A stretch of 64,000 nt of DNA, taken from contig CM022679.1 in assembly GCA_012295275.1 (NCBI GenBank), positions 2,728,001 through 2,792,000 on the forward strand, written 5' to 3'. The notes below the pieces were generated by a model, which saw only the letters and a list, made by a program, of their open reading frames with translations, did no database searches and was not told where the DNA came from. The position numbers were made by a program, and so were the translations under genes. How positions within the stretch are numbered: position 1 is the first letter of the stretch; each line of letters begins with the position of its first letter. Positions 43,921 to 49,002 of the stretch are shown here, piece by piece. This DNA comes from Chrysomallon squamiferum. Its lineage: Eukaryota; Animalia; Mollusca.

Positions 43921-46900
43921 TCACAGAATTAGTTTCTTGGGTATCTCCCATGGAAACTCTGACCGCCCAAAATGACCGTAACATGCTGTCTTCTGGTAGA
44001 TTGGACGTCGCAGATTTAGCTGCCTAAAAAATAAAAAACCAATAAAATCATTAAGTATAATTCATTTAAAAAAAACATAACACATTTATGCATTAATCAT
44101 TATTATTACAAAATTTTTACATATCTATAGGTGAATAATAATTTTAAAATATCAAAATTATATATATATTATTGTTATTATTATTTAAAGTCTTAAAAGA
44201 GAAAACCTACTGAAAGTTTCTCTTGTTAAAAGAAAGTAATGTTATGTGACTGACAGAATCACATTAATGCATTAAAACAATTGTTTTAACTGATAATCAT
44301 GTTCTGGAAATCCCAAGATAAAAAATTATGAGCAAATGTTTTATGACTAACCTATATGCCATCTAATTTATCATTTTCTCAAAATTCATAATAGTTTTAA
44401 CCATACATACACTCATCATTATTATGTTAATGTGATGCAGAAAGAATGTATGATTATGTATTATCCTACACAAAAACAAACGTATAAATTAATATAAACT
44501 GTACTCTTTATTTGAATGTTATGACTACAAAGATGGCAATTGTATGCACCATTATCGAAAACCATTCTCACACAAGCACTGTGAATGCAGCATTCACTTT
44601 CTGTGCTCAGTCAGTAAATTGCACTGTGATCTTACTTGATAATTATGTTTGGTCTGAAGTCAAAATTCTTTCTCACAATGTCGAGGAGAACTTCACGTCT
44701 TTTCCGACTTGTTCCGTAGTTAAACAAAGTGACAGACACAGGCTCAGAGACTCCATGACAGTATGCAATCTGAAACACATTTTACTGTACTACTTACCAG
44801 AAGATACTAACAGTTTGAAAACTTTCTCACAAACATCTGACAATCTTCATTTTTATCAGAAGAAATTTATCAGGTTTGAAAATCAAACTAACATGTAACT
44901 ATTATTTTAAAAAAAAAAAATAAATAAAACCAGATCAGATATAAAATGATTCAGTCAACTTCAAGCTACAGATAGTTAAGTCTAACAATAACTGAAACAA
45001 TTAACTCAAAACAAATTTAAAAGTTTTAATTTAACAACTTAATGTCAGAAAGGTTTCAAATTTTTAAATTTAAAAAAATGTTAGTGATCTAAATTTCATT
45101 TCCATTATTATTTTTTTAATAATAATCATGTAACTTTTTTTAATTAAAAGTTCATATTAAGAAACATTTTTACAAGAGAACAGTTATTTTGCAGATGTTT
45201 ATATCAAGTTGTGAATGACTGAAAACAAATATTCTGTAATTCTAAAATATGTTTATGGACTACTATTACCTGAACTAGAACTCTCCGACAGATTCCAGCT
45301 TTGACCAGTGACAAGGCAACCCAGCGAGCTGCATAAGATCCACACCTGTCAATCTTGGTTGGGTCTTTACCTGACAGAGCACCCCCTCCATGAGCACCCC
45401 ACCCACCATAAGTATCAACAATAATCTTACGACCAGTCAAACCTGCATCACCCTTTAAATGAAACAAAAATAAAGATTTTTCACATATATACATATATAT
45501 AGATATACATACATATACATATACACACATAAACACATATACATATACATATACAGAAAAAAAAATTCCATAAAGGAAAGCCCATATATCAGCTTTTGAT
45601 AAATGAATAGTAAATGATTCTACCACTAGACATTTCAACAAGGCATCAATTTTCTAGATGTTTTATAAAATTCCAGCTATTCAAGAGGTTTTCATCTTTA
45701 TTTTATTACACAAATAGCTGAAACAAGCAGTGTTAAAATAGTTAAATAAATCCTCTCAAATAAATAAATAAATAAACTTTCAAGATAAGACATTTAGAAA
45801 TAGAAATCCCATAAAATATTAAAGGTTTTAAATGAAGGAAAGAACCTGAAAATACAAATATATAATTACCTGTGGGCCTCCAATGATAAATCGACCAGAT
45901 GGTTGTAAATGATAAATAGTATTCTTGTCCCGGTATTGCTCAGGAATCACAGAATAAATCACTTTTTTCATGAGGTCGTCTCGCAGTTGTTCCAGGGTTA
46001 CAGTTTCATCATGTTGAATGGATATGACCACTGTGTGTATTCTGATTGGAACCATAGCACCTCTGTCTGATCTGTACTCTACGGTCACCTTAAAGTAATC
46101 ACTATTTGTTTTTAACTACATCTGAAAACATGCTTACAATAACACAATCAGCTGACAAGCAAGTTTATATTAAATAAACAGTAATATATTATGTGGAATT
46201 AGAATAATTAATATTACTGAAAACAGACAGAATGTTATTTATCCAAATTTCATACTGACATCTCTTTTGCATTCAGAATATTCCATAAAATGTAAGAATG
46301 GTTGTTTTTAATAGTCTTTTAGGTCTGAAGATAACATAATGGAATGTTAACCTCGGAATATTAACTGTTTTAATTTACTTGTGTCTTTGAATCTGGTCTG
46401 GCCCATGGAAGTTCTTTCTTTCTTCGTAATTCTGCTATCTTTGCATTCAACTGATGAGAAAGTAAAACTGTCAGTGGTATACACTCCTCTGTCTCATCAG
46501 TGGCATATCCAAATACAAGAGCCTGAAAACAAACAATTCATCACTGCATACTCAAATACAGCAGTTTGAAAACAAACAATTCATCGGTGGCGTAACCAAA
46601 TACAACAGCCAGAAAATTGTCTCTGAATACAGAACACACTGATGTAACAAACATTTATAAAGCAAAAACTCTAACAACAATTTTTGCACAAATGAATGAA
46701 TTTCCTAACTCTAATTCCAAATTTTTAATTTATTAAAAAAAAAGCTGTTTTAAATGTATGTATATAATCCTGCAAATAAGTGTCTGGTTACGGATACTGT
46801 GACAAAACAAATCTGCCTGATCATAACAAATTTAATATTAGCTGTCATTCAAAATGAAGTATTTGAAGGTTCAAAGGTGAACAAATAAAAATGCATATTT

Positions 46901-49002
46901 CTAATGGTCTTCAGATTGTATTTTATTTTGATTAGTACTTACAGAATCATTGGCAGGCATGTTGTCAGTCTCATCTGAATGGACAGACTCAACAAGTTTA
47001 TGATGCTCCAGGGAAAGAAGAACATTACAAGTATTGTAACAAAAACCTGCAATTTGCAATCAGTGTGTTTATTATAATCAGGTTTTATTATCTATTAAAC
47101 ATGGTTTTATTTAAATAAATGAATATCAGTTAATACTAAGCCATGTAATGAGCAGTGGTTGGAATGGAAAAGAATGAAATGGGTACACTGAGAAGAACTG
47201 ATTCTGTGACAGAATTCAAGTAAACTGTTTAAAACATTACAAATTAAATATACAACTGAACAAAAATCACTAAATACAGTATCTTCAAAATTAAATTAAA
47301 AATGTTTAGAAAAATAATAATAAATAGAATTACTATTTTAATTAATTAACGGTATCATTCATCCAATTCTGATGATATACATTGTAACATTAAACAATTT
47401 TTCATAATTTTTATTATCATAACGTTGTTAAATATATTAAAACGTTTTGAAGCGCAACTTATAAATGTATAACAATGATGCTGCAAACCTTTTTCAGAAC
47501 AGTCATATCCAATATGTTGAATTGTGTTGCGGATAACATCTTGGTAGTTCACCTCTGCTTTGGAAACGATGTCTCCACAGACAAACACCATGCCTGTTTT
47601 AGCTACTGCCTGACACGATGCTTTGACAAACTTGTCTTGGGCCAAGTGAGCATCTAAGATAGCATCACTCACCTGGTCACACATTTTATCTGTCAAGCAA
47701 AAATAAAACTTACCAGAAATGTTACATGTCTGTTGTTTTAGTTATTTTGACACATGTATCTGACCATGTAATTTTATTTGTGATGCATATGATATAAATA
47801 ACCAATAATCAATTTTTTTTACAGTTCAGTGTTGTTTTATTTCACCTAACAAACAATTATTGTTTTTACAAATAAAACAAAGATAGCAATACTTGTCTGA
47901 TTATATATTTTATCTGATAAAAAAATTCTATAAAGAAAGAAGTTAAGAATGCTTAAATGACTGACTAAACCAAGCATTTAAAATCTTTGGTTATACTAGC
48001 ATCAAACATTTTAATGACCACACCATTAATCAGAGGATATCTATTACCATCACAGAATGGACAACTTCAACTAGCAGCAAAGGATCATATATATGAACCG
48101 TATCTGGAAAATACACACTGTAGTCTTTGATACATATTTCATGTTCACTGCTGATTCAGTGCTGAATGTTCAGCAGGGGAACTACCCATTTTTCAACAAA
48201 AAGTAAAATATCTGGTACCAGTTCAATTATTTGCTGTAAACACTTGATATAAAGATGAATATTATTAATTTTAAATCAGATAACCCTAATATTTGTATTC
48301 TTGTTTATTCTGAAATGTCTGAAATATATTTTTATGTTTAAATTCTAATCCATGCCATCATAAATACAAAAGAAAAGGAGAAAGGGAAAATTTCAAAGTA
48401 AATTTAGAGGTCTCCTTTGTTGTTTGTGACAAAATAATTTAAATTATGAGATAAACTGGCACTTCAGATTTATATATTGCCGAATATTTTGCTACGATTT
48501 CTGCTGGTGCAAGTATAAAAAGGACTACTTGTGGTACTTCCAAAAAATCACCACTTAGCACAAAATAACATTAACACTGCAACTTGCATGTGCAACACTA
48601 ACACTAACAGCAACACTAACAATAAGAGGCATGTTAAAAAGTTTGTGAGAAGCGTATGTGCGTGTGTTCGCAACTAAGACGAATAAGATATAGGAAAAAA
48701 TAAGAAATCATAAAAGGCAGAAGCAGTTCTGACTGTAAATTTAATAAAAGAAGAGATTACATCATTATATAACTATTATAACTCTAACATCTGTAAGTCA
48801 CTTCTTGAACTTCAAGTTGACGTTCTTCGGTTTATGACGCACACATTCATAAATATATTATTAAAATATGAAAAATACCTGGATGTCCTTCACCAACAGA
48901 TTCTGATGTAAATAAAAATGTTCCAGAAATATCTTCAGACAAATTCGTTGAAGATATCTTTTTTATGTCAGGTAAACTGATCGCTTCCAAAATGTTAGAC
49001 AT
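43921..49002 (-). CDS. MAT: S-adenosylmethionine synthetase (methionine adenosyltransferase)-like protein, 403 aa, divergent methionine pocket
   Basis: Exons 48879-49002, 47489-47689, 46943-47046, 46379-46522, 45870-46088, 45270-45452, 44636-44769, 43921-44023 total 1212 nt with an intact frame. Motifs: [86 protein letters not shown]. Confidence 0.95.

What the first reader, a model, noticed from the sequence alone, without database searches (positions are those of the whole stretch)
43921..49002. Intact SAM-synthetase paralog with a rebuilt methionine pocket: candidate altered-substrate enzyme or pseudoenzyme
Seen: the spliced 403-aa ORF has no stops. Using recalled human MAT2A numbering, it keeps the ATP/triphosphate/Mg residues (E23, H29, D31, D134, D179, K181, S247-R249-F250, D258, R264, K265, K285, K289, D291). 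The changes concentrate at the amino-acid site. ACETVAKTG becomes SCQAVAKTG (K+ ligand E57Q, 47610-47612). AGEIT becomes CGDIV (E70D). The gating loop EQQSPDIAQGVHLDRNEEDIGAGDQG becomes [23 protein letters not shown] (Q113H, SPD lost, 3 aa shorter, signature GAGDQG destroyed; 46943-47046). YAIG becomes YCHG (I322H, 44755-44757), and GAFSGKD becomes GALSGKD. Known: these positions are near-invariant from bacteria to humans, and I117/I322 are the residues mutated to change MAT methionine-analog specificity. Inference: retention of the rest of the fold implies a new role, such as adenosylating a different or polar substrate, acting as a tripolyphosphatase/ATPase, or serving as a regulatory subunit of canonical MAT.
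Basis: partly seen in the sequence, partly recalled or inferred. Interest (0 to 1): 0.82.

Follow-up and report, generated by a model that had tools for sequence, protein, structure and literature searches.

The report
Gastropod-wide rebuilt SAM-synthetase paralog
Snails and slugs keep, beside their normal SAM-making enzyme, an old second copy that is transcribed and spliced, keeps the ATP-handling residues and has a fixed, rebuilt methionine pocket, so it likely acts on a substrate other than methionine.

Summary
An 8-exon gene encodes an intact 403-aa methionine adenosyltransferase (MAT) homolog. RNA contigs of two runs join all 7 introns, and a second MAT with a canonical-type N-terminus lies in the same RNA run. 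It is not a one-off. It belongs to a clade (100/100 support) found in 22 named gastropod species of four subclasses; 12 species were seen to hold both it and a canonical MAT. In 30 aligned members A55S, E70D, G131P, F282L, V290I, S293C and A295S are fixed, E57Q is in 29, and Q113/S114 are always replaced, while 12 of 13 nucleotide/triphosphate/Mg residues are invariant. Coding variants are 7 synonymous to 1 non-synonymous. Decay and assembly error are rejected. Best reading (0.45): an adenosyltransferase re-aimed at a non-methionine, amine-bearing acceptor. Rivals: retuned SAM synthetase (0.28); triphosphatase or regulatory subunit (0.24). No paper on it was found in four searches, and the scan's earlier notes hold nothing on it.

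The parts
48879..49002 (-). Coding exon 1: start codon, N-terminal extension, E23, H29 and the GHP of the GHPD signature
   Evidence: first ATG after an in-frame stop
47489..47689 (-). Exon 2: D31 and the clade-fixed A55S (47618-47616), E57Q (47612-47610), E70D (47573-47571)
46943..47046 (-). Exon 3: rebuilt gating loop, Q113H (47002-47000), G131P (46957-46955), G133N (46951-46949), D134 kept (46948-46946)
46379..46522 (-). Exon 4: D179, K181
45870..46088 (-). Exon 5: S247, R249, F250
45270..45452 (-). Exon 6: D258, R264, K265, K285, K289, D291 kept; clade-fixed F282L (45377-45375), V290I (45353-45351), S293C (45344-45342), A295S (45338-45336)
44636..44769 (-). Exon 7: I322H (44757-44755), seen only in this protein among 30 clade members
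43921..44023 (-). Last coding exon with the stop codon
43500..43920 (-). 3' untranslated region (an RNA contig runs to the edge of the stretch laid, so it may be longer)
   Evidence: X9 record 20
49003..49041 (-). 5' untranslated sequence covered by an RNA contig
   Evidence: X8 record 18

Best explanation
The gene is a transcribed, spliced member of an old gastropod-wide MAT paralog clade that likely still cleaves ATP and transfers adenosyl, but probably to an amine-bearing acceptor other than L-methionine. Shown: intact spliced frame, clade membership, co-existence with a canonical MAT, fixed pocket changes, kept nucleotide ligands. Inferred from human and E. coli MAT structures: it forms the usual dimer with sites shared between subunits; H29, D31, D134, D179, K181, F250, R264, K265, K285 and D291 bind ATP and Mg and break the C5'-O bond; the triphosphate is then hydrolysed. 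Inferred from the pattern of change: an acid is kept at both amine-binding positions (D70, D258) and a new hydroxyl is fixed beside them (S55), whereas the carboxylate ligands are lost (Q113 in all members, K289 in the caenogastropod branch) and the S-methyl pocket (I117, G133, I322) drifts. The acceptor would thus keep an amine but not methionine's carboxylate or side-chain fit. The leading guess is a decarboxylated or reduced methionine such as 3-(methylthio)propylamine, which would give decarboxylated SAM directly; this identity is a guess (about 0.1 to 0.15). E57Q would make the enzyme largely independent of K+.
For: Clade of 20 of 64 tree rows at 100/100, with subclades matching Heterobranchia, Caenogastropoda and Vetigastropoda+Neomphalina; the window protein is sister to Gigantopelta P0001. 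Fixed in 30 of 30 aligned members against 26 of 26 canonical rows: A55S, E70D, F282L, V290I, S293C, A295S; G131P in 30 of 30 against G in 25 of 26 (1 gap); E57Q in 29 of 30. 12 of 13 nucleotide/PPPi/Mg sites are invariant, 0 of 10 methionine/K+/loop sites keep the canonical residue throughout (Fisher p 1e-5, site lists chosen by me after seeing the alignment). E70, Q113 and D258 bind methionine's main chain (PMC6850014), A55 and I322 touch SAM (PMC3793261), E. coli Q98 and K269 bind the carboxylate (PMC3853416). In mouse MAT2A, S114A I117A and Q113N I117A lower kcat/Km for Met from 778 to 0.079 and 0.085 and shift selectivity to an analogue (PMC11240257); S114 is replaced in 30 of 30 members. 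12 species hold both copies. 7 synonymous to 1 non-synonymous coding variants (p 3e-4). Recalled, not read here: human K289L/K289S favour methioninol (Huber et al. 2020; only the title of PDB 6P9V was seen).
Against: No activity was measured and no substrate is known. The pocket is not uniform across the clade (113 H or P; 133 G, R, T, K or N; 289 K or Q; 322 M, I, V, T or H), which fits relaxed constraint as well as one new substrate; the window protein itself keeps K289. Q98H and G117N in E. coli keep over 50% ATP activity, human Q113A keeps 75.6%, and archaeal MATs make SAM with a different head-group pocket. D258 also binds the ribose, so its retention needs no amine. Recalled, not found: E. 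coli E42Q (= E57Q) cuts SAM synthesis about 100-fold but triphosphatase only about 2-fold, which would hurt any adenosyl transfer. A search for papers on MAT with methylthiopropylamine and methioninol found none.
Confidence: 0.45

Rival explanations
1. It is still a SAM synthetase, but a retuned isozyme: K+-independent, high Km for methionine, freed from product control, or loosened in nucleotide choice (GTP, CTP or UTP giving SAM nucleobase analogues).
For: Members pass the NCBIfam metK equivalog cut-off (464-549 bits against 309.4; canonical copies 595-599). E70D keeps an acid; K289 is kept in 20 of 30 and AGDQG in 15 of 30. Q98H and G117N keep over 50% activity, and the loop sets nucleotide choice in E. 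coli MAT (bioRxiv 10.64898/2026.07.10.737877). Archaeal MATs bind the Met carboxylate with His, Asn and a second Asn near the loop and lack an E55 counterpart (PMC3853416). Human S114A activity is restored by the beta subunit.
Against: All of A55, E57, E70, Q113, S114 are changed together, a combination seen in none of 320 other MATs or 150 distant representatives. Single mutants were tested in those papers, not the combination. Human S114A alone leaves 2.5% activity. A canonical MAT already exists in the same species.
Confidence: 0.28
2. It no longer uses an amino acid. It acts as an ATPase or triphosphatase, or as a nucleotide-binding partner subunit that pairs with canonical MAT and tunes it. 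In a mixed dimer one of the two sites would be fully canonical, because the residues given by one subunit (H29, D179, R249, F250, D258) are all kept and the changed ones (E70, Q113, I117) come from the other.
For: Subunit assignment of E. coli E55, Q98, I102 against H14, D163, R229, F230, D238 (PMC8727953) matches the split between changed and kept sites. Human gating-loop mutants lose SAM synthesis but keep full triphosphatase activity, and S114A crystals hold adenosine and PPNP. The methyl pocket and the loop drift freely. Recalled: E42Q spares triphosphatase activity.
Against: E70D, A55S and G131P are fixed in 30 of 30 rather than drifting, which an empty pocket would not obviously need. 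Methionine-side residues come mostly from one subunit in any MAT, so the half-site pattern is expected under every reading. E57Q weakens the E57-R264 bridge between subunits (role).
Confidence: 0.24
3. A decaying duplicate, or assembly errors.
For: The clade evolves about 2.2 times faster than canonical MAT in the same species (median of 66 species pairs).
Against: Intact frame and spliced RNA; intact orthologs in 22 named species; 154 of 344 positions invariant in 30 members; pN/pS about 0.05; DNA and RNA contigs of other runs carry the same pocket codons.
Confidence: 0.02

Closest known systems
Animal methionine adenosyltransferase alpha subunit (human MAT1A/MAT2A; canonical molluscan MAT; EC 2.5.1.6)
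   Same: Same three Pfam domains in relatives, same fold (model of Haliotis member P0002 matches human MAT2A, Foldseek E 2e-50), GHPD signature, nucleotide/PPPi/Mg ligands, 62-68% identity to canonical animal MATs.
   Different: A55S, E57Q, E70D, Q113H/P, loss of S114, G131P, F282L, V290I, S293C, A295S; gating loop of variable length (18-27 against 21 residues); 2.2-fold faster rate; always found beside a canonical copy where checked.
Archaeal MAT (Thermococcus kodakarensis, Pyrococcus furiosus, Methanocaldococcus jannaschii)
   Same: A rebuilt methionine head-group pocket with His and Asn, and no E70-type glutamate; the window's Q113H and G133N equal the archaeal-type changes tested in E. coli.
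   Different: The paralog is of the bacterial/eukaryotic sequence type; no archaeal MAT was among the 45 PDB matches. N133 is private to the window protein and H113 is in 15 of 30 members, so the likeness is convergent and partial.
Engineered MATs with changed substrate range (mouse MAT2A I117A, Q113N I117A, S114A I117A; human K289L; E. coli loop swaps)
   Same: Changes at the same positions (113, 114, 117, 289, loop) shift specificity away from Met or ATP (K289L recalled).
   Different: Those are laboratory mutants with one or two changes; here a natural set of about ten changes has been held across four gastropod subclasses.
Catalytically dead paralogs that regulate their active sister, such as trypanosomatid AdoMetDC prozyme, and MAT2B (both from my own knowledge)
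   Same: A duplicate kept beside the active enzyme that could act through a mixed oligomer.
   Different: Prozyme lost its catalytic residues, whereas this protein keeps the MAT catalytic His and metal ligands; MAT2B has an unrelated fold.

Membership tests
MAT / SAM synthetase sequence family (TIGR01034, PF00438/PF02772/PF02773) | Profile match above the curated cut-off | tested here: met
   4 of 4 full-length clade members score 464-549 bits against a cut-off of 309.4; 3 of 3 window exons given match the same model. The spliced window protein itself was not scanned.
MAT / SAM synthetase sequence family (TIGR01034, PF00438/PF02772/PF02773) | MAT three-domain fold | tested here: met
   Model of Haliotis member P0002 (mean pLDDT 64, pTM 0.53) matches human MAT1A/MAT2A in all 50 rows listed; the model is too poor at residues 117-131 and 255-295 to judge the pocket.
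Canonical (L-Met + ATP) MAT of bacteria and eukaryotes | GHPD catalytic His and nucleotide/triphosphate/Mg ligands | tested here: met
   12 of 13 sites invariant in 30 members, D291E in 3; all kept in the window protein.
Canonical (L-Met + ATP) MAT of bacteria and eukaryotes | Methionine main-chain ligands E70, Q113, D258, K289 | tested here: not met
   E70D and Q113H in the window; D258 and K289 kept; K289Q in 10 of 30 members.
Canonical (L-Met + ATP) MAT of bacteria and eukaryotes | E57 (bridge to R264; K+ ligand role recalled) and gating-loop S114, I117, GAGDQG | tested here: not met
   E57Q in 29 of 30; S114 replaced in 30 of 30; G131P in 30 of 30; PANDSA in the window.
Canonical (L-Met + ATP) MAT of bacteria and eukaryotes | Synthesis of SAM from L-Met and ATP | not testable with these tools
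   Needs an enzyme assay.
Archaeal-type MAT | Sequence of the divergent archaeal family | tested here: not met
   Best matches are animal MATs at 62-68%; matches TIGR01034.
MATX (divergent algal MAT) | Placement in the MATX clade | not tested
   No MATX row was in the tree; identity to animal MATs and the gastropod-matching topology make it unlikely.
Pseudogene | Broken frame, no spliced transcript, neutral variation | tested here: not met
Regulatory pseudoenzyme subunit | Binding to, and control of, the canonical enzyme | not tested
   No complex job was sent: a MAT-MAT pair would pass by likeness to solved dimers and could not tell homo- from heterodimer.

The most novel reading that the evidence does not exclude
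Gastropods evolved, early in their history, a natural MAT that no longer makes SAM but adenosylates another small molecule (for example decarboxylated methionine, giving decarboxylated SAM without AdoMetDC, or an unknown amine-bearing thioether or a different nucleotide pair), so a whole animal class carries an undescribed adenosyl metabolite or a shortcut into polyamine synthesis.
Probability: 0.4. Interest if true: 0.88.

Novelty: new variant of a known kind. Interest (0 to 1): 0.7.

Why it matters
MAT is among the most conserved enzymes, and I know of no natural animal MAT with another substrate (own knowledge). Here databases label the members simply as SAM synthase or SAM synthase-like. 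A paralog with a fixed, rebuilt pocket in abalone, periwinkles, whelks, apple snails, pond snails, land snails and sea slugs points to an unknown piece of gastropod metabolism or a new way of controlling SAM supply. It is directly testable with recombinant protein and LC-MS. It may also give a natural scaffold for making SAM analogues, which laboratories now obtain by engineering the same positions, and it marks a snail-restricted enzyme in species that transmit schistosomes or damage crops.

Tried and rejected
No genome is held for this window, so the canonical copy could be seen only through reads and relatives. Laying reads on exon 6 at 80% likeness did not pull in the canonical transcript, and run X10 (organism B) gave only a 32-base match in a 31.8-kb contig, so no between-species dN/dS was obtained. 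Contig depths were not used to rank the two genes, as the tool forbids that reading. The AlphaFold model (24-row alignment) was of middling quality and says nothing on pocket geometry. The date of the duplication is open: in the free tree the clade attaches next to two annelid rows, yet AU tests reject neither a mollusc-internal (p 0.184) nor a gastropod-internal origin (p 0.151). No member was seen in limpets, bivalves, the chiton or any non-mollusc among the top 120 rows of each of three searches; only the listed rows were screened, so this is not proof of absence. Paper searches for the paralog, for six accessions, for E42Q and for methioninol/methylthiopropylamine found nothing relevant; supplements were not searched and most subscription papers are not held. 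The Huber 2020 paper is not held. The scan's earlier findings held nothing on this lineage. No complex prediction was run because it could not separate the rivals. Rejected: I322H and the loss of GAGDQG as the defining changes; archaeal origin; retrocopy (7 introns); pseudogene; assembly error.
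Full report
Gene. The minus strand holds eight coding exons from 49002 to 43921, all introns GT..AG, giving 403 residues without a stop. 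The ATG is the first after an in-frame stop. No genome is held. Eleven runs were listed for the stretch, two of them RNA, both from one study. Contigs of both RNA runs join all seven introns, and one 1980-base contig of X9 covers all eight exons and at least 420 bases of 3' untranslated sequence. The gene is transcribed and spliced as modelled.

The changes are real. No listed read difference touches these codons. Eight coding variants were listed; seven are synonymous and one is Ile to Val. Under neutrality one or fewer non-synonymous of eight has probability 3e-4, pN/pS about 0.05. Twelve rows were not shown, so the count may be incomplete.

A canonical copy. In RNA run X9 another record matches 48879-48912 and runs on unlike the window at both sides. 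Translated by hand, the two loose ends read CSQDDVGSFL and DKICDQVSDA, as in the canonical MAT of Gigantopelta aegis (P0196). DNA run X2 has a 3138-base contig that matches 48876-48912 with 3 differences at depth 19.3, against 18.6 for the contig of this locus. A second MAT gene with a canonical-type N-terminus is therefore likely in this organism; its pocket residues were not seen. The library is a metatranscriptome, so another source for that record is not excluded.

A gastropod-wide clade. Exon 2 found Gigantopelta (P0001, 78% over the full length) and Haliotis (P0002, 72%) first. A profile search, a search with the 270-325 region and cluster look-ups gave members named from 22 gastropod species: Gigantopelta, four Haliotis, Pomacea, Babylonia, Nucella, Batillaria, Littorina, Bradybaena, Candidula, Arion, two Biomphalaria, Bulinus, Lymnaea, Physella, three Elysia and Plakobranchus, plus seven unnamed assemblies. 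In a 64-row tree the 20 members included form one side of a 100/100 branch, split into heterobranch, caenogastropod and vetigastropod plus neomphaline groups, with the window protein sister to Gigantopelta at 100/99. The organism is thus a gastropod close to Gigantopelta. Twelve species were seen with both this copy and a canonical MAT; in seven of them the two proteins are reported on contigs of identical length, which suggests the same chromosome or scaffold and a local duplication. The clade must predate the split of these subclasses, several hundred million years ago by my own knowledge. AU tests reject neither a mollusc nor a gastropod origin (p 0.184, 0.151), and the free tree places it near two annelid rows, so an older origin is open. 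Outside the loop it evolves 2.2 times faster than canonical MAT (median of 66 pairs), yet 154 of 344 positions are invariant in 30 members.

What is fixed. In 30 members (some near-identical, so not independent) against 26 canonical rows: A55S, E70D, G131P, F282L, V290I, S293C and A295S in all 30; E57Q in 29; V59A in 29 (the window protein has V); Q113 is H in 15 and P in 15; S114 is never kept. K289 is Q in 10; G133 and Q135 are kept in the 15 heterobranch-type rows; I322 is M in 19, I in 6, V in 3, T in 1 and H only here. E23, H29, D31, D134, D179, K181, F250, D258, A259, R264, K265 and K285 are invariant and D291 is E in 3. Of 352 proteins screened, none outside the clade had more than 2 of 9 diagnostic residues, apart from one fused Batillaria record that is a piece of the paralog. 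Of 150 distant representatives none had more than 3 of 8.

What the positions do. I read passages of PMC6850014: E70 and D258 bind the amino group of Met, Q113 its carboxyl; E57 bridges to R264 of the partner; Q113A keeps 75.6% and S114A 2.5% of SAM synthesis, all mutants keep triphosphatase activity, and the beta subunit restores activity. Passages of PMC3793261: A55 and I322 contact SAM. Passages of PMC7271947: E57, E70, Q113 and K289 are among the conserved catalytic residues in 2963 sequences. Passages and a table of PMC11240257: I117A double mutants lose about four orders of magnitude in kcat/Km for Met. Abstract, the first third of the results and passages of bioRxiv 10.64898/2026.07.10.737877: E. 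coli Q98H and G117N keep over 50% ATP activity, and the loop governs nucleotide choice. One section of PMC8727953 and one passage of PMC3853416: archaeal MATs make SAM with other head-group ligands, and E. coli E55, Q98, I102 come from one subunit while H14, D163, R229, F230, D238 come from the other. Passages of PMC1282579 give the His14 mechanism; passages of PMC13324607 added nothing used. Recalled only: E. coli E42Q abolishes K+ activation and cuts SAM synthesis about 100-fold (McQueney and Markham 1995); human K289L favours methioninol (Huber et al. 2020).

Mechanism. The nucleotide and metal ligands of both half-sites are held, so ATP binding and cleavage are probably kept. The amino-acid side is rebuilt in two ways: fixed new residues at the amine end (S55, Q57, D70) with repacking next to K285 and K289, and drift at the carboxylate and methyl contacts. 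I take this as most likely a change of acceptor (0.45), with an amine-bearing, carboxylate-free methionine relative as the first guess. Against it: the pocket differs between subclasses, the window protein keeps K289, single matching mutants stay active, and E57Q may slow any transfer. A retuned SAM synthetase (0.28) and a triphosphatase or partner subunit (0.24) remain close rivals; decay or error is at 0.02.

Comparison and novelty. By profile and fold it is a MAT-family protein. It fails the residue tests for a canonical methionine and K+ site, so it should not be filed as a confirmed SAM synthetase, although public records name it so. Four searches of the held library found no description of the paralog; subscription papers and supplements were out of reach and may mention it. 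The scan's earlier notes held nothing relevant. Verdict: a real, expressed, old and apparently undescribed variant of a known enzyme; function untested; interest 0.70.

Noticed in passing
window 46503-46629: Three tandem copies (40 nt, spacing 43-44, 68-85% identity) of the intron 3 acceptor and first codons of exon 4; only the copy at the exon is used in the RNA contigs.
   Followed up: partly
window 48300-48657: A 352-base contig of RNA run X8 lies inside intron 1, across a short length-variable repeat near 48592-48625; may be unspliced RNA, DNA carry-over or a separate transcript.
   Followed up: no
window 29686-33906 (+): Exons of a TUG/ASPSCR1-like gene (TUG-UBL1 and UBX matches); extent beyond the first matched exon is estimated from open frames.
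   Followed up: partly
window 57533-63612 (+): Exons of a CCDC96/CCDC113-like ciliary coiled-coil gene (PF13870 match at 63331-63609) with long acidic Glu-rich exons near its start.
   Followed up: partly
window 11758-25902 (-): A multi-exon gene with a C2-like start and coiled-coil end, resembling CCDC33 (name recalled; Pfam gave only weak sub-threshold matches).
   Followed up: partly
P0130 (Littorina saxatilis paralog): The only clade member of 30 with E at position 57; a natural revertant useful for testing K+ dependence.
   Followed up: no
P0198 (Liolophura) and P0208 (Sinanodonta): A chiton and a freshwater mussel each carry a second, long-branch MAT outside this clade; the chiton copy has S114N, a changed loop start and S293C but keeps E57, E70 and Q113.
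   Followed up: no
P0493, P0491, P0450, P0443, P0403 (unnamed representatives): Other full-length MAT homologs with independently altered methionine pockets (changes at 55, 57, 70, 113, GAGDQG) exist among distant representatives.
   Followed up: no
P0142/P0160 (Babylonia), P0155/P0165 (Nucella): Neogastropods hold two canonical-type MATs in addition to the rebuilt paralog.
   Followed up: no
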